From NCBI GenBank assembly GCA_036263775.1, contig DATATA010000074.1, forward strand, positions 6,782-70,781: a DNA stretch of 64,000 nt. The letters run 5' to 3'. Origin of the DNA: Steroidobacteraceae bacterium (GTDB lineage: Bacteria; Pseudomonadota; Gammaproteobacteria; Steroidobacterales; Steroidobacteraceae). Positions 22,457 through 49,399 of the stretch are shown here, one piece after another. Each line of letters starts with the position of its first letter. Position 1 is the first letter of the stretch. A program made the position numbers and the translations under genes. The notes beneath the pieces were generated by a model, which had not been told where the DNA came from, did not search any database, and worked only from the letters and a program-made list of their open reading frames with translations.

Positions 22457-25400
22457 CTACGCGGCCTTGGCCGGCGCGGCAAGCTGACGCAACACATATT
22501 GCAGTATTCCGCCGTGCTGGTAGTAGTCCAGTTCCTTCGGTGTATCGATGCGCAAGCGCGCTTGAAACTCGATGGATATGCCGTCATCGCCTTTTGCGAT
22601 GACTCTGACCACCTTCGCCGCGCCCCGGTTCAGGCCGGCGATCTCGAAAGTCTCCTTGCCCGAAAGCCCTAGGCTCTGCGTGCTCTGACCTTCCTTGTAT
22701 TGCAGCGGCAGCACGCCCATGCCGATCAGATTGGAGCGGTGAATGCGCTCGAAGCTCTCGGCGATGACAGCCTTGACGCCCAACAGCATCGTGCCCTTGG
22801 CCGCCCAATCGCGCGAACTGCCCGTGCCATATTCCTTGCCGGCGAGAATCACCAGCGGCGTTTTCGCCTCTTGGTACTTGACCGAGGCGTCGAAAATCGA
22901 CATTTGCTCGCCGCTGGGAATGTGCAGCGTGACGCCACCCTCGGTGCCGGGTAACAACAGATTGCGCAATCGGATGTTGGCGAACGTGCCGCGCATCATG
23001 ACTTCGTGATTGCCGCGGCGCGCGCCGTAGGAATTGAAATCCGCCGCTTGCACGCCTTGCGCCATGAGGTACTTGGCAGCCGGACTGGATTTCGAAATGT
23101 TGCCGGCGGGGGAAATGTGGTCGGTCGTGACCGAATCACCCAACACTGCGAGCGCGCGTGCTCCTTTGATGTCGCCCATCGGGGCCGGCGTCATGGTCAT
23201 GCCCTCGAAGTAGGGCGGATTTTTCACGTAGGTGGATTTTCCGTCCCACGAGTAGATTTTTCCGGCCGGCGTCTTGATCGCCGCCCAATTCGTGTCGCCC
23301 AAAAACACATTGGCGTAGCCTTTCTTGAACATGGCCGAATCGACCGATGAAGCGACCGCGGCGGCGACATCTTGGGCGCTCGGCCAGATGTCCTTAAGAT
23401 ATACCGGCTTGCCGTCCTTGCCCGTTCCCAAGGGCTCGGTGGTGATATCGATGTCCAGGCTTCCTGCCAGGGCATAGGCGACAACCAGCGGCGGCGAAGC
23501 CAGAAAATTCATCTTGATTTCCGGATGCACGCGGCCTTCGAAATTGCGATTACCGGATAACACCGAACAGGCGACAACATCGCCCACTTTTACAGCCTCG
23601 GAGATTTCGGGCTTGAGGGGTCCTGAGTTTCCGATGCAATTGTGTACGGCCACGTTGCCGGCTAAAAAAGCCTGTACCTGGGGCACGGCAATGTCGAACA
23701 CCCGCCGGCGTCCTGCGCCGCGGCGGTCGATGACGCGCAAGCTCAAGGCCGGGAGAGTGAGGGACTCCTTGTCGACAAAGTAGCGACTCGCACGATCAAG
23801 CGATTGACCCACTCGCAATGCGCCGAACCAGTGGCTTACCCCGAGCTGCTCAAAGAGTTGTGCAGGCGAGGGGAACTCCGGTGTCTCGACCTCGGCGAGT
23901 TCGGCTGCGGCAATCGATCGCGATCGGGCGAAGGTCCGTTGGACCGGGAGGCGGTACATGCGATCGAGTCGGTCGGCCATCCCTAGCCGCTGACGGTTGA
24001 TGGTTGCGAGCATACGCCAATACACGGCAGCCGCACTCGCTCGCAGATTCTTGTCGATACAGTAGCGATAGCCGACCCGCTCAACAAAAGAAAGCCCGTC
24101 GGGCAGCTCTAAACGGATTTCCCGTCGAGCGATCCCGTCCTGCGCGCTCGGATAAGCGGAGGCCGAGCGAGGCGTGGGATATTCGCGGACCGCGGCACCA
24201 GAGACCTCGACCCCGCAACGGGAGAGCAGCTGGATGATCCTGTCCATCTTCTGTCTGGTTGAATCGACGAACTCGGGTTTGGCGCTTTGCGAGTACCTGG
24301 GCGGCTCCAGGCTCGCATGAGCCGCGGTCTTGCCATAGCGGTGCAGGATAGGAGCATGTCCGTCTGCACCGAAGATACCGCCCAGGAATTCGCGCACCAC
24401 CGAGACCGGGCAGGTTGATTTCAACAGGAATTCGGGCAGGAACGCGGGCTGTTCGATGCGCCGGCCGACATGGACACCTCGGAGCGCCAGCACGCTCTGG
24501 GTCAGCTCGAGCGGCAGCACGATGGACCACTTGCGCTGATCGTAAGCGGTGGCTTTCGGCCGCTTGGCCGTGAGCAGCTCGATATCATTGAGAACCGCTT
24601 CGCGGTCAAATTTTTGCCCCACGTTCATCCGCGCCTGCCCGGCGCAACTGATCGACCCGTCGCCAAGTAAATGGCCCAGCAGACGCGCGAACGCGAGGGT
24701 GCAGCGACGTTCGTTGTCGCTCGCCATGGTAAAGGTCCGAGGTCCCGCCTGCAGCTCGTAGCCCGACTCATCGTCACCAGGATCATCGAGCGGAGCCTCC
24801 GGTCCTATCAGAACGCGATCATTGTTTAGAACGAGCTCGTCGGCCCGAACCCAGCGTCCATCCGCGCATAACACACGATGATCGGGCGTGAGCGTGAGAG
24901 CGCGGCCGTCCTCGAGCACGATCGACAGGCAGTCGCGCTCGCCCTGATCCATGCGCTCGGTCTGCATCGCCATCTGCAGCTCGCCTTCAGCGAGGGGCGC
25001 AAGCACTCGCAGCCCTCCGGCCGCGGCCATCGATTCGATGCGGCGGGCGGTGCCATCCGCCAGCGTTACGGGAGTGCCATCGGCGATGCACGTAGTACAG
25101 CCATAGCCCACCGTGTAAAACCCCAGCCGTTCCAAATCGCTCAACAGACCCGCTTTGGCTAGGTAGTCCGTCACCACACGCGACCCTGGAGCCAGCGAAG
25201 TTTTCACCCACGGTTTCGCGCTCAAGCCTTTTTCGAGCGCACTGCGCGCCAGCAGACCCGCGGCCACGAGGACGGCGGGGTTGGAAGTATTGGTGCAACT
25301 CGTGATGGCGGCGATGAGCACCGCGCCATCTTTGACGTCGAAACTGGCGTTGCCGACCGTGGCCGGCGCGCTGCCCGCGGCCTGGGGGTTTTTCTGGGTG

Positions 25401-26602
25401 CGTTCCTCCGCCATTTTCTTCACGCTGCTCCGATAGACGCTCTTCGCCTTTGTCAAGGGCACCCGGTCCTGCGGACGTTTGGGTCCGGCCAGAGACGGTT
25501 CTACCTTCGACAGGTCCAATTCGACCACATCGGTGTAATCCGCGGCCGGCGCGCCGTTGATGCGCCACAGGCCCTGCGCCTTGGCGTAAGCCTCGACAAG
25601 GGAGATCTGCTCGGCCGATCGGCCGGTCAATTCCAGATAGCGGATCGTTTCCTCGTCGATGGGGAAAATTGCACAGGTCGAGCCGAACTCCGGCGACATA
25701 TTGGCAATGGTCGCGCGATCGGCGAGAGGCAATCCTTTGAGCCCATCGCCGAAGAATTCCACGAATTTGTCGACGACGCCTTTTTTGCGCAGCATCTCCG
25801 TCACCATCAGCACCAGGTCGGTCGCCGTGGTGCCGGGCGGCAATGCGCCCGTCAGCTTGAAGCCAATGACTTGCGGTATCAACATGGTGACCGGCTGCCC
25901 CAACATGGCCGCCTCGGCTTCGATTCCGCCGACGCCCCAGCCGAGAACTCCCAAGCTGTTCACCATGGTGGTGTGCGAATCGGTGCCCACCAGCGTATCC
26001 GGGTACGCGGTTTTTTTGCCGCCGGCATCATCGGAGAAGATCACGCGCGCGAGGCGCTCGATGTTGACCTGGTGCACGATGCCGGTATTCGGCGGCACGA
26101 CCTTGAAGTTGCTGAACGCAGTCTGGCCCCAGCGCAGGAACATGTAGCGTTCGCCGTTGCGCTTGAACTCGATTTCGTTGTTGTGCTGCAGTGAACTAGC
26201 GGCACCATACTCATCGACCTGCACCGAGTGATCGATCACCAGTTCGGCCGGAGCCAGCGGGTTGACCTTCTGCGGATCGCCTCCCAGCTTCACGATCGCC
26301 TCGCGCATCGCGGCAAGATCCACGATGCATGGAACACCGGTGAAATCCTGCATGATGACCCGGGCGGGGGTGAACGCGATCTCATGGCTCGGAAGCGCCT
26401 TCGAGTCCCACTTCAGCAGCGCTTCGATGTCGTCCTTCGTCACGTTGACGCCGTCTTCGAATCGCAGCAAATTCTCCAATAGGATCTTGAGCGAGAAGGG
26501 CAGGCGCTCGACGTTGAGCGAATTCAGGGCCGCAAGGCTCAAAATGTCGTACTGCTGCGCGCCGACTTTGAGCGTCGTTCGTGCCTTGAAGCTGTCTGTC
26601 AT
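22457..26602 (-). CDS. acnA: Aconitate hydratase A interrupted in frame by a 484-aa intein (precursor 1381 aa; predicted spliced enzyme 897 aa)
   Basis: The N-extein (aa 1-504) and C-extein (aa 989-1381) are collinear with AcnA: LPFSLKILLENLLR, VGTDSHT, ITSCTNTS, GYGCTT|CIGNSGPL, SGNRNFEGR, GSSRDWAAKG. Total extein length of 897 aa is typical for AcnA. Confidence 0.93.
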   Translation of the reverse strand: MTDSFKARTTLKVGAQQYDILSLAALNSLNVERLPFSLKILLENLLRFEDGVNVTKDDIEALLKWDSKALPSHEIAFTPARVIMQDFTGVPCIVDLAAMREAIVKLGGDPQKVNPLAPAELVIDHSVQVDEYGAASSLQHNNEIEFKRNGERYMFLRWGQTAFSNFKVVPPNTGIVHQVNIERLARVIFSDDAGGKKTAYPDTLVGTDSHTTMVNSLGVLGWGVGGIEAEAAMLGQPVTMLIPQVIGFKLTGALPPGTTATDLVLMVTEMLRKKGVVDKFVEFFGDGLKGLPLADRATIANMSPEFGSTCAIFPIDEETIRYLELTGRSAEQISLVEAYAKAQGLWRINGAPAADYTDVVELDLSKVEPSLAGPKRPQDRVPLTKAKSVYRSSVKKMAEERTQKNPQAAGSAPATVGNASFDVKDGAVLIAAITSCTNTSNPAVLVAAGLLARSALEKGLSAKPWVKTSLAPGSRVVTDYLAKAGLLSDLERLGFYTVGYGCTTCIADGTPVTLADGTARRIESMAAAGGLRVLAPLAEGELQMAMQTERMDQGERDCLSIVLEDGRALTLTPDHRVLCADGRWVRADELVLNNDRVLIGPEAPLDDPGDDESGYELQAGPRTFTMASDNERRCTLAFARLLGHLLGDGSISCAGQARMNVGQKFDREAVLNDIELLTAKRPKATAYDQRKWSIVLPLELTQSVLALRGVHVGRRIEQPAFLPEFLLKSTCPVSVVREFLGGIFGADGHAPILHRYGKTAAHASLEPPRYSQSAKPEFVDSTRQKMDRIIQLLSRCGVEVSGAAVREYPTPRSASAYPSAQDGIARREIRLELPDGLSFVERVGYRYCIDKNLRASAAAVYWRMLATINRQRLGMADRLDRMYRLPVQRTFARSRSIAAAELAEVETPEFPSPAQLFEQLGVSHWFGALRVGQSLDRASRYFVDKESLTLPALSLRVIDRRGAGRRRVFDIAVPQVQAFLAGNVAVHNCIGNSGPLKPEISEAVKVGDVVACSVLSGNRNFEGRVHPEIKMNFLASPPLVVAYALAGSLDIDITTEPLGTGKDGKPVYLKDIWPSAQDVAAAVASSVDSAMFKKGYANVFLGDTNWAAIKTPAGKIYSWDGKSTYVKNPPYFEGMTMTPAPMGDIKGARALAVLGDSVTTDHISPAGNISKSSPAAKYLMAQGVQAADFNSYGARRGNHEVMMRGTFANIRLRNLLLPGTEGGVTLHIPSGEQMSIFDASVKYQEAKTPLVILAGKEYGTGSSRDWAAKGTMLLGVKAVIAESFERIHRSNLIGMGVLPLQYKEGQSTQSLGLSGKETFEIAGLNRGAAKVVRVIAKGDDGISIEFQARLRIDTPKELDYYQHGGILQYVLRQLAAPAKAA
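23639..25090 (-). mobile_element. Intein with embedded LAGLIDADG homing-endonuclease domain, in frame inside acnA
   Basis: Block A CIADGTPVTLADG (Cys1). Block B LTLTPDHRVL (TxxH). LAGLIDADG motif 1 RLLGHLLGDGS (24653..24685) and motif 2 FLGGIFGADGH (24356..24388). Blocks F/G RRVFDIAVPQVQAFLAGNVAVHN, followed by the +1 Cys. Removing exactly 1452 nt restores the conserved GCTTCIGNSG. Confidence 0.9.
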
Positions 26603-48105: not shown

Positions 48106-48181
48106 GCGGGAATAGCTCAGTTGGTAGAGCGCAACCTTGCCAAGGTTGAGGTCGCGAGTTCGAGCCTCGTTTCCCGCTCCA
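48106..48181 (+). tRNA. tRNA-Gly (anticodon GCC)
   Basis: 76-nt cloverleaf, with acceptor GCGGGAA/TTCCCGC, D-loop AGCTCAGTTGGTAGAGC, anticodon loop CTTGCCAAG, T-arm GCGAGTTCGAGCCTCGT and an encoded CCA. Confidence 0.95.
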
Positions 48182-49325: not shown

Positions 49326-49399
49326 GGCTAAGTGGCAGAGTGGTCATGCAGCGGCCTGCAAAGCCGTCTACGCCGGTTCGATTCCGACCTTAGCCTCCA
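49326..49399 (+). tRNA. tRNA-Cys (anticodon GCA)
   Basis: 74-nt cloverleaf, with acceptor GGCTAAG/CTTAGCC, anticodon loop CTGCAAA, T-loop TTCGATT and an encoded CCA. There is one C-A mismatch in the T-stem. Confidence 0.9.

What the first reader, a model, noticed from the sequence alone, without database searches (positions are those of the whole stretch)
23627..25102. Intein sits exactly on an Fe-S cluster ligand: the +1 nucleophile is the third cluster cysteine
Aconitases bind their [4Fe-4S] cluster through three cysteines. Here these are ITSC(436)TNTS and the pair in GC(502)TTC. The intein is inserted between T504 and that last Cys, so the +1 splice nucleophile (Cys989 of the precursor) is itself the third cluster ligand. 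Intein Cys1 occupies its place in the unspliced protein.

The precursor therefore cannot assemble a native cluster. Aconitase (and any apo-aconitase RNA-binding) activity should depend strictly on splicing. A Cys1/Cys+1 pair flanking an insertion in a redox- and iron-sensing enzyme invites a hypothesis: splicing may be gated by redox state, for example through a Cys1-Cys+1 disulfide trap, as reported for some other inteins. That would add a post-translational switch on TCA flux.
Basis: inference. Interest (0 to 1): 0.7.

Follow-up and report, generated by a model that had tools for sequence, protein, structure and literature searches.

The report
Mobile intein in aconitase Fe-S site
The aconitase gene is interrupted by a self-splicing, mobile protein element inserted exactly at the third iron-sulfur cluster cysteine; it belongs to a widespread, apparently undescribed family that looks like a selfish element, not a proven redox switch.

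Summary
ORF 22457-26602 (-) encodes a 1381-aa AcnA precursor. A 484-aa intein (window 23639-25090) lies between Thr504 and Cys989. Cys436, Cys502 and Cys989 align with the human IRP1 cluster ligands Cys437, Cys503 and Cys506. Intein Cys1 (Cys505) takes the sequence slot of ligand 3.

The element is a canonical class-1 intein carrying a LAGLIDADG homing endonuclease, and every splicing residue is present. It is not unique. The same insertion (GYGCTT|C...HN|CIGNSGP) is in 80 of 80 fetched loci, out of 249 species-level genomes. These span Proteobacteria, Chloroflexota, Acidobacteriota and Planctomycetota, with Thaumarchaeota among the protein hits. I found no paper describing it.

Comparative data point to a selfish, horizontally moving element:
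- Hosts with up to 94% identical aconitase have an empty site.
- Other hosts, also 94% identical, carry an intein only 63% identical.
- Synonymous divergence is 2-4 times lower in the intein than in the exteins.
- Across most phylum pairs, inteins are more alike than aconitases.

The window copy has lost a conserved 33-aa endonuclease-region segment.

Redox or Fe-S gating remains an untested hypothesis. But these cysteines are fixed by host function, so they are not evidence of adaptation.

The parts
22457..26602 (-). acnA precursor ORF, 1381 aa including the intein; the end coordinate includes the stop codon
   Evidence: NCBIfam AcnA TIGR01341 scores 1349 bits against a cut-off of 945. Pfam Aconitase and Aconitase_C match.
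25091..26602 (-). N-extein, residues 1-504, ending ...GYGC(502)TT. It contains cluster ligands 1 (C436, codon 25295-25297) and 2 (C502, codon 25097-25099). C502 is position -3 relative to the intein.
23639..25090 (-). Intein, 484 aa, precursor residues 505-988: a class-1 Hint splicing domain with an inserted LAGLIDADG homing-endonuclease domain
   Evidence: AF2 model and Foldseek matches. Family alignment.
25088..25090 (-). Intein Cys1 (precursor C505), the N-terminal splice nucleophile. It sits in the sequence slot of cluster ligand 3.
   Evidence: Cys in 81 of 81 family members.
24929..24931 (-). Intein Cys54 (precursor C558). Invariant in the AcnA intein family but not in the related giant-virus RPB2 inteins. 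Its role is unknown.
   Evidence: 81 of 81 and 43 of 43. RPB2 relatives have T, I or L here.
24878..24889 (-). Block B TPDH (intein T68 and H71), which catalyses the N-S acyl shift
   Evidence: Both residues are present in 81 of 81 members. Coordinates checked.
24650..24682 (-). LAGLIDADG motif 1, LLGHLLGDGSI (acidic residue D144)
   Evidence: D144 is present in 79 of 81 members.
24353..24385 (-). LAGLIDADG motif 2, LGGIFGADGHA (acidic residue D243)
   Evidence: D243 is present in 81 of 81 members. Weak Pfam LAGLIDADG_3 hit.
23876..23881 (-). Junction of a window-specific 33-codon in-frame deletion (ETP^EFP). It removes the family-conserved segment IFPHYSLLEGHDRFSRLP..F.PLHR.SC.
   Evidence: The segment is present in 79 of the 80 other loci and in RPB2 inteins.
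23639..23701 (-). Blocks F and G, VFDIAVPQVQAFLAGNVAVHN: D466, penultimate H483, terminal N484. The block F histidine is replaced by Gln in this clade.
23636..23638 (-). Cys+1 (precursor C989). It is both the C-extein nucleophile and the third [4Fe-4S] ligand, equivalent to IRP1 Cys506.
22457..23638 (-). C-extein, residues 989-1381, plus the stop codon

Best explanation
This is a canonical class-1 intein carrying a LAGLIDADG homing endonuclease. It has invaded acnA at the most conserved stretch of the gene, the GYGCTTCIGNSGPL cluster-ligand loop, immediately upstream of the third ligand cysteine.

How it works (inferred from conserved residues and established intein chemistry):
1. After translation the Hint domain folds.
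2. Cys505 (Cys1) makes the N-S acyl shift, helped by block B T68/H71 and block F D466.
3. Cys989 (+1) attacks the thioester.
4. Asn484 cyclises with H483, and an S-N shift restores the native CTTC peptide.
5. Only then can Cys436/Cys502/Cys989 bind the [4Fe-4S] cluster.

Why this site (inferred):
- A class-1 intein needs Cys, Ser or Thr at +1.
- The endonuclease benefits from a DNA target that is invariant across phyla.
- An insertion at an essential ligand can be removed only precisely.

What is shown is that the element belongs to a large family that spreads horizontally by homing and is polymorphic among close relatives.

The window copy keeps every splicing residue but has lost a conserved 33-aa segment and other conserved residues of the endonuclease region. 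It is therefore probably a splicing-competent copy whose endonuclease is starting to decay, a late stage of the homing cycle. Any redox or metal sensitivity would be a by-product of having three reactive cysteines at the junction. It need not be a selected switch.
For: Anatomy:
- Junctions GYGCTT|CIADG...VAVHN|CIGNSG.
- C1, T68, H71, D466 and N484 are present in 81 of 81 members, and H483 in 79 of 81.
- LAGLIDADG D144 is present in 79 of 81, and D243 and K347 in 81 of 81.
- AF2 model with pLDDT 87.4. Foldseek matches HE-inteins TliVMA, PI-PfuI, PI-SceI and PI-TkoII, free LAGLIDADG enzymes I-Tsp061I and I-DmoI, and mini-inteins RecA, DnaB and DnaE.

Family:
- 249 species-representative genomes encode relatives.
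- All 80 fetched loci have the identical site in an intact long ORF, and intein length is 511-519 aa in 78 of 80.
- 38 of 38 N-junctions and 63 of 63 C-junctions in metagenome proteins are identical in position.

Mobility:
- The window exteins are 94% identical to L010/L018, but the inteins are only 63-64% identical.
- The nearest inteins (83%) are in L001/L002/L004, whose exteins (87-89%) and flanking mnmA and M16 genes are more distant.
- Against L001/L002/L004, intein dS is 0.35-0.74 and extein dS is 1.27-1.47.
- In every Acidobacteriota-Chloroflexota pair the intein (mean 69%) is more similar than the extein (mean 53%).
- 118 of the 120 closest AcnA homologues (75-94% identical) have an empty site, including one in a syntenic locus.

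Selection: omega is 0.10-0.23 in the endonuclease region.

Decay in the window copy: it is the top outlier of 81 for changes at conserved endonuclease-region columns, with 19 against a median of 2, while the Hint blocks are intact.

Target site: first and second codon positions are nearly invariant across phyla.
Against: - No experiment shows splicing or endonuclease activity for any member.
- The block F histidine is Gln in the window clade (9 of 81), which could slow the C-terminal steps.
- Purifying selection on the endonuclease region is also compatible with some host-level function.
- The family carries an invariant, AcnA-specific Cys54 whose role is unexplained. It could mean the intein has adapted to this host.
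- The extein flanks in the AF2 mini-precursor are low confidence (pLDDT 52-68), and no coordinates were available. The Cys(-3)/Cys1/Cys+1 geometry is therefore unknown.
Confidence: 0.8

Rival explanations
1. The intein is a domesticated conditional-splicing sensor. Under oxidising or iron-limited conditions a disulfide holds the precursor unspliced. The disulfide could be Cys502(-3)-Cys505(1), Cys505(1)-Cys989(+1), or involve Cys54. Alternatively, metal or cluster binding to Cys1 does the same job. Production of the oxidant-labile aconitase, or of its apo RNA-binding form, would then be gated after translation.
For: - The precursor carries C(-3)-T-T-C(1) plus C(+1).
- This is the arrangement of the engineered Ssp DnaE trap and the natural Pab MoaA Cys-3/Cys1 trap. 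The Cys1/Cys+1 pair matches the Pab PolII trap.
- MoaA, like aconitase, is an oxygen-labile enzyme.
- The Mtb SufB intein, in an Fe-S assembly protein, is ROS/RNS sensitive.
- Zinc reversibly inhibits inteins (PMC7360933, listed).
- Cys54 is invariant and specific to the AcnA family.
Against: - All three junction cysteines are required by host function or intein chemistry whether or not there is regulation.
- Close relatives manage without the intein, or with a 63%-identical one.
- The homing endonuclease is retained and the element moves horizontally. No mini-intein form appears among the 80 loci.
- Redox sensitivity is not universal among Cys1 class-1 inteins, and the HEN-bearing DnaBi2 was the unresponsive one (PMC6195587).
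- A 2014 review states that no physiologically relevant role for conditional splicing had been shown (PMC4031507).
- Nothing was tested here.
Confidence: 0.15
2. The insertion is a dead intein and the gene is a pseudogene or non-functional aconitase, with a paralogue elsewhere in the genome supplying activity.
For: - The window copy has a 33-aa deletion and three substitutions at family-conserved positions.
- The block F histidine is Gln.
- The rest of the genome was not available, so a second aconitase cannot be excluded.
Against: - The 1381-codon ORF is intact.
- All essential splicing residues are present.
- The deletion is in frame and outside the Hint blocks.
- The exteins are under strong purifying selection (omega 0.03-0.12).
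- The Gln variant is shared by the clade's intact ORFs.
Confidence: 0.05

Closest known systems
Homing-endonuclease inteins of the PI-SceI / PI-PfuI / TliVMA type (class 1, LAGLIDADG)
   Same: Hint splicing domain interrupted by a two-motif LAGLIDADG endonuclease. Cys1, block B TxxH, C-terminal HN and Cys+1 are all present. The insertion is at a highly conserved host site. Foldseek E = 6e-15 to 1e-10.
   Different: The host is a TCA-cycle Fe-S enzyme. Known inteins favour replication, repair and nucleotide-metabolism proteins: 61.5% of bacterial intein hosts are in COG category L and 21.7% in F (PMC4760082). Sequence identity to solved inteins is only 12-14% over the full length.
Giant-virus (NCLDV) RPB2 and PolB inteins
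   Same: Homologous over the whole length, at 24-31% identity. Shared motifs are LAFARxLGY..DG, DIELxTGKxPK, CPxSxxREFLGGxFGGDGHAP and GFRHCxxK, plus the segment that is deleted in the window copy.
   Different: Different hosts and sites (for example NPH|CIPSRMT, GEMERD|C, DF|CSLYP). None of the 65 full-length junctions inspected, other than AcnA, lies at a CxxC ligand motif. Cys54 is not conserved in them.
Pyrococcus abyssi MoaA intein (natural Cys-3/Cys1 redox trap) and the engineered Ssp DnaE trap (PDB 3NZM)
   Same: Cys at extein position -3 and catalytic Cys1 form a CxxC. The host is an oxygen-labile enzyme. 3NZM appears among the structural matches of the Hint domain.
   Different: For the AcnA intein, disulfide formation and redox-dependent splicing are untested. 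The Cys at -3 is there because it is cluster ligand 2 in all aconitases. From memory only, not verified here: the MoaA Cys-3 may likewise belong to an Fe-S motif.
Pab PolII intein (Cys1-Cys+1 disulfide), Mma PolII and Msm DnaBi1 (internal disulfides), and Mtb SufB intein (ROS/RNS sensitive)
   Same: Catalytic cysteines that can be oxidised and so stall splicing. SufB links an intein to Fe-S metabolism.
   Different: Those cases rest on biochemical data, and none exists here. SufB is a cluster-assembly scaffold. Nothing I read describes its intein as sitting on a cluster ligand.

Membership tests
Class 1 intein | In-frame insertion in a conserved host protein whose homologues lack the insertion | tested here: met
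   Removing residues 505-988 gives a gap-free alignment to IRP1. 118 of the 120 closest AcnA homologues are uninterrupted at GYGCT[TS]CIGNSGP. An empty site also occurs in a syntenic locus, L100.
Class 1 intein | N-terminal Cys or Ser (block A) and block B TxxH | tested here: met
   Cys1 and TPDH (T68, H71) are present in 81 of 81 family members.
Class 1 intein | Block F Asp, penultimate His, terminal Asn, and +1 Cys, Ser or Thr | tested here: met
   D466, H483, N484 and C989 are all present. The family counts are 81/81, 79/81, 81/81 and 80/80 loci. The second block F residue, a His, is Gln in this clade (9 of 81).
Class 1 intein | Hint fold | tested here: met
   AF2 pLDDT is 87.4. Foldseek matches to RecA, DnaB and DnaE mini-inteins give TM(target) 0.52-0.63 and rmsd 1.6-2.9 A. 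phmmer to the RecA intein gives E = 1e-7. The Pfam PF14890 score of 28.9 bits is below the gathering score of 35.8.
Class 1 intein | Autocatalytic protein splicing | not testable with these tools
   This needs expression of the precursor and detection of ligated exteins and free intein.
LAGLIDADG homing endonuclease (intein-borne) | Two LAGLIDADG motifs with their acidic residues | tested here: met
   LLGHLLGD(144)GSI and LGGIFGAD(243)GHA. Family conservation is 79/81 and 81/81.
LAGLIDADG homing endonuclease (intein-borne) | LAGLIDADG fold | tested here: met
   Foldseek matches to PI-SceI, PI-PfuI, TliVMA, I-Tsp061I, I-DmoI and E-DreI. The Pfam LAGLIDADG_3 hit is only E = 0.05.
LAGLIDADG homing endonuclease (intein-borne) | Complete family architecture in this copy | tested here: not met
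   The window copy lacks 33 conserved residues and has R207H, R307P and C438F. It has the most deviations of the 81 sequences.
LAGLIDADG homing endonuclease (intein-borne) | Site-specific cleavage of the intein-less allele | not testable with these tools
   Homing is inferred indirectly from intein/extein discordance.
AcnA/IRP-type aconitase | Full-length match above the curated cut-off, with three cluster cysteines | tested here: met
   TIGR01341 scores 1349 bits against 945. AcnD (TIGR02333) scores 839 bits against 1420, so it is not met. C436, C502 and C989 align to IRP1 C437, C503 and C506.
Redox-trap (conditional-splicing) inteins of the MoaA / PolII type | Cysteine partner positioned to bond catalytic Cys1 (extein -3 or +1) | tested here: met
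   C502(-3)-T-T-C505(1) and C989(+1) are present. This is a sequence-level test only.
Redox-trap (conditional-splicing) inteins of the MoaA / PolII type | Disulfide actually forms, and splicing depends on reduction | not testable with these tools
   The extein flanks in the model have low confidence and no coordinates were available. Biochemistry is required.

The most novel reading that the evidence does not exclude
The AcnA intein family could be a natural Fe-S and redox checkpoint. The precursor presents Cys436, Cys502(-3) and intein Cys1 in the exact native ligand spacing, with Cys+1 and the invariant, family-specific Cys54 nearby. Oxidation could form a Cys-3/Cys1, Cys1/Cys+1 or Cys1/Cys54 disulfide. 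Alternatively, iron, zinc or a cluster could bind Cys1. Either event would reversibly stall splicing. Mature, oxidant-labile aconitase, and its apo RNA-binding form, would then be released only when the cytoplasm is reducing.
Probability: 0.12. Interest if true: 0.75.

Novelty: new member of a known kind. Interest (0 to 1): 0.45.

Why it matters
Known inteins concentrate in replication, repair and nucleotide-metabolism proteins (PMC4760082). A large family inside a central-metabolism Fe-S enzyme, with the cluster ligand as its splice nucleophile, extends the known host range.

The family has at least 249 species-level genomes across several bacterial phyla, plus archaeal protein hits. It shows cross-phylum homing into a housekeeping metabolic gene of soil microbes.

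It also offers a native system in which conditional splicing could be tested in a physiologically meaningful setting: Cys(-3)xxCys1...Cys+1 in an oxidant-sensitive enzyme. The many natural variants, empty-site alleles and a copy with a damaged endonuclease would serve as controls.

Practically, gene callers and protein databases fragment these precursors. Many of the hits are labelled 'hypothetical' or 'aconitase family protein, partial'.

Tried and rejected
- **Literature.** Full-text searches for intein with aconitase, aconitate hydratase, AcnA, cluster ligand and radical SAM found no description of an aconitase intein. Callahan 2011 (PMC3087850) and Belfort 2017 (PMC5671916) are not held. 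I therefore could not verify whether the MoaA Cys-3 is itself an Fe-S ligand.
- **Second aconitase or intein.** tblastn found none in the window.
- **Cysteine-rich intein as an adaptation to the Fe-S host.** The family has about 8 conserved cysteines, and I considered a metal site. I largely rejected this. The Cys before block B, C227 and C344 are also conserved in giant-virus RPB2 inteins, whose host is not an Fe-S protein. Only Cys54 is AcnA-specific.
- **Geometry of Cys-3/Cys1/Cys+1/Cys54.** I could not measure it. The structure tool returns no coordinates, and the extein flanks are low confidence.
- **Phage or virus vector.** No AcnA intein appears in IMG/VR, only distant RPB2 inteins.
- **Compositional signature of recent import.** None is evident. 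Intein GC is 0.632 and GC3 0.719. The exteins have GC 0.59-0.61 and GC3 0.75-0.79.
- **Other RNAs.** The Rfam and tRNA scans of the window gave only two tRNAs.
Full report
**1. Observation**

The minus-strand ORF 22457..26602 encodes 1381 aa.

The insertion is residues 505-988, which is 484 aa at window 23639..25090. Deleting it gives an 897-aa protein. That protein aligns over its full length with human IRP1 (PDB 2B3X, 1019 bits) with no gap at the junction. The alignment puts C436, C502 and C989 on IRP1 Cys437, Cys503 and Cys506, the three [4Fe-4S] ligands (PMC7181819).

NCBIfam calls the host AcnA: TIGR01341 scores 1349 bits against a cut-off of 945. It is not AcnD. So the +1 splice nucleophile is the third cluster ligand, and intein Cys1 occupies its position in the primary sequence.

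**2. What the insertion is**

It has every hallmark of a class-1 intein:
- Cys1 and block B TPDH.
- Block F Asp466, then C-terminal His483-Asn484 followed by Cys+1.
- Two LAGLIDADG motifs, LLGHLLGDGSI and LGGIFGADGHA.

Sequence searches find the Mtu RecA intein (E = 1e-7) and Pfam Intein_splicing (E = 1e-6, below the gathering score).

An AlphaFold2 model of a mini-precursor (20 aa + intein + 20 aa) has pLDDT 87.4 and pTM 0.87. By Foldseek it matches three groups:
- endonuclease-bearing inteins TliVMA, PI-PfuI, PI-SceI and PI-TkoII (E = 6e-15 to 5e-10);
- free LAGLIDADG enzymes;
- mini-intein splicing domains.

**3. It is a family, not a singleton**

A protein search with the intein alone returned 163 hits. 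Of the 120 listed, every one with a recognisable host domain is an aconitase. All 38 N-junctions and 63 C-junctions that could be read are at the same position.

A scan of 185,579 species-representative genomes found 249 that encode a relative. In all 80 loci kept, the intein sits at GYGC[TM][TS]|C...N|CIGNSGP inside an intact ORF spanning both exteins, mostly 1400-1580 codons where the contig holds the whole gene. Intein length is 511-519 aa in 78 of them.

The hosts are uncultured, judging by the MAG names mostly from soil:
- Gammaproteobacteria, including Steroidobacteraceae;
- Ktedonobacteria and other Chloroflexota;
- Pyrinomonadaceae and Blastocatellia;
- Gemmatales;
- a 'delta proteobacterium';
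- Thaumarchaeota/Nitrososphaerota, among the protein hits.

Full-text searches found no paper describing an aconitase intein. The large 2016 survey of intein hosts does not mention aconitase. It reports that 61.5% of bacterial intein hosts are in COG category L and 21.7% in F (PMC4760082).

A profile search of 1.84 billion representative proteins shows that the wider superfamily has 533 representatives at E <= 1e-30. Among the full-length junctions I inspected, the recognisable hosts look like giant-virus RPB2 and family-B DNA polymerase. Aconitase was the only metabolic host I recognised among those junctions. The homology to RPB2 inteins runs along the full length.

**4. How it behaves in evolution**

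The window's exteins are 94% identical to those of L010 and L018. The flanking mnmA and M16-peptidase genes agree that these are the closest hosts (mnmA 78-79%, M16 77-80%). Yet their inteins are only 63-64% identical to the window's.

The closest inteins (83%) are in L001, L002 and L004, whose exteins (87-89%) and flanks (mnmA 71-73%) are more distant. Against those three, synonymous divergence is 0.35-0.74 in the intein but 1.27-1.47 in the exteins.

Across phyla the pattern is more striking. In every Acidobacteriota-Chloroflexota pair the intein (mean 69%) is more similar than the highly conserved aconitase (mean 53%).

Empty sites are also common. 118 of the 120 closest aconitase homologues (75-94% identical over a 426-aa junction segment) have an uninterrupted site. 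One of them lies in the same acnA-M16-M16 arrangement.

Omega is 0.10-0.23 in the endonuclease region, against 0.03-0.12 in the exteins. Empty sites, occupied sites and sites occupied by a different lineage all occur among close relatives. Together with purifying selection on the endonuclease, this is the classical signature of a homing element.

The reconstructed target site is nearly invariant at first and second codon positions across phyla. That explains how one endonuclease can reach so many hosts.

**5. State of the window copy**

All splicing residues are intact. Relative to the family, however, the copy has changed in three ways:
- It lacks 33 residues, IFPHYSLLEGHDRFSRLP..F.PLHR.SC. 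This segment is conserved in the family and even in RPB2 inteins.
- It has lost the conserved Cys438 (now Phe).
- It carries R207H and R307P.

It is the top outlier of 81 sequences for changes at conserved endonuclease-region columns, with 19 against a median of 2. The Hint blocks show one change each. In the model of a complete member (P0009), the missing segment is predicted with confidence (pLDDT about 87-90) as an ordered, mostly non-helical stretch.

I read this as a splicing-competent intein whose endonuclease module has begun to decay. This is an inference. The block F histidine is Gln in the whole window clade.

**6. The redox-switch idea**

Precedents exist:
- the natural Cys-3/Cys1 disulfide of the P. 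abyssi MoaA intein, and its engineered DnaE counterpart;
- the Cys1/Cys+1 disulfide of Pab PolII;
- internal disulfides in Mma PolII and Msm DnaBi1;
- ROS/RNS sensitivity of Mtb SufB.

That gives the same CxxC geometry as the MoaA trap.

I also note that the N-extein plus Cys1 reproduces the full ligand spacing. Metal or cluster binding to Cys1 is therefore a second conceivable brake.

None of this is evidence, for four reasons:
- These cysteines are present in every aconitase or required by intein chemistry.
- Relatives 92-94% identical in aconitase do without the intein.
- The element keeps its endonuclease and moves horizontally.
- Redox sensitivity is not general among class-1 inteins (PMC6195587).

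The one family-specific feature that might hint at adaptation is Cys54. It is invariant in 81 of 81 and 43 of 43 AcnA inteins and absent from RPB2 relatives. From the beta-hairpin register I infer that it lies next to block B, but I had no coordinates to check this.

**7. Verdict**

The site observation is right. The element is an ordinary kind of thing, a homing-endonuclease intein, in an unusual and apparently undescribed host and site, and it belongs to a large horizontally spreading family.

The regulatory interpretation is a legitimate, testable hypothesis with good precedents. It has no support from the comparative data. I give it about 0.12-0.15 as a selected physiological switch. Some in-vitro redox sensitivity is more likely than that.

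Noticed in passing
window 23876-23881 (-), the deletion junction inside the intein: This copy has a 33-codon in-frame deletion flanked by a short TTCCC-like microhomology. It removes a segment conserved across the family and in giant-virus RPB2 inteins. The neighbouring conserved Cys438 is now Phe. L004 carries a different deletion of about 30 aa just upstream.
   Followed up: yes
window 24929-24931 (-), intein Cys54; family alignment of L001-L080: The AcnA intein family has about 8 conserved cysteines: C1, C54, the residue before block B Thr, C75, C227, C292, C344, one in the deleted segment, and position 438. Only Cys54 is both invariant and specific to the AcnA family. Several of the others are shared with RPB2 inteins. 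26 of 81 members also have Cys three residues before the terminal Asn (CVHN|C).
   Followed up: partly
L081-L095 (IMG/VR giant-virus contigs); P0243-P0382: The intein's nearest non-aconitase relatives (24-31% identity over the full length) are inteins at junctions such as NPH|CIPSRMT, GEMERD|C and DF|CSLYP. I read these, from the motifs, as RNA polymerase subunit 2 and family-B DNA polymerase. Several of the contigs are labelled giant-virus MAGs. This suggests an old link between a bacterial/archaeal metabolic-gene intein and giant-virus inteins.
   Followed up: partly
L010, L018 and L034 compared with the window: Hosts with 93-94% identical aconitase exteins and conserved mnmA-acnA-M16 synteny carry a different intein lineage at the same site. 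It is 63-64% identical, 514 aa long and ends ...TVCVHN. This implies independent invasion or intein replacement.
   Followed up: yes
window 25084-25090 and 23632-23638 (-): The intein and the C-extein both begin with the same 7 bases, TGCATCG (Cys-Ile-). The unspliced N-junction therefore reads GYGCTTCI, exactly like the mature protein. Most family members start CI or CL.
   Followed up: partly
window 22457-26602 (-); NCBIfam scan: There are weak whole-intein matches to NCBIfam 'intein-containing RtcB family protein' (E = 7e-11) and 'intein-containing Rv2578c family radical SAM protein' (E = 2e-7). The second match starts in the extein at YGCTT|C. That hints at another intein placed at an Fe-S cysteine motif, but I could not inspect the alignment.
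   Followed up: no
protein database hits P0001-P0120: Many database entries for this family are fragments, frameshifted or called from internal starts, for example P0001, P0002 and P0008. They are labelled 'hypothetical' or '3-isopropylmalate dehydratase small subunit'. Intein-bearing aconitases are poorly annotated in public data.
   Followed up: no
window 48106-48181 and 49326-49399 (+): tRNA-Gly(GCC) and tRNA-Cys(GCA) genes. Nothing else in the window reaches an Rfam gathering score.
   Followed up: no
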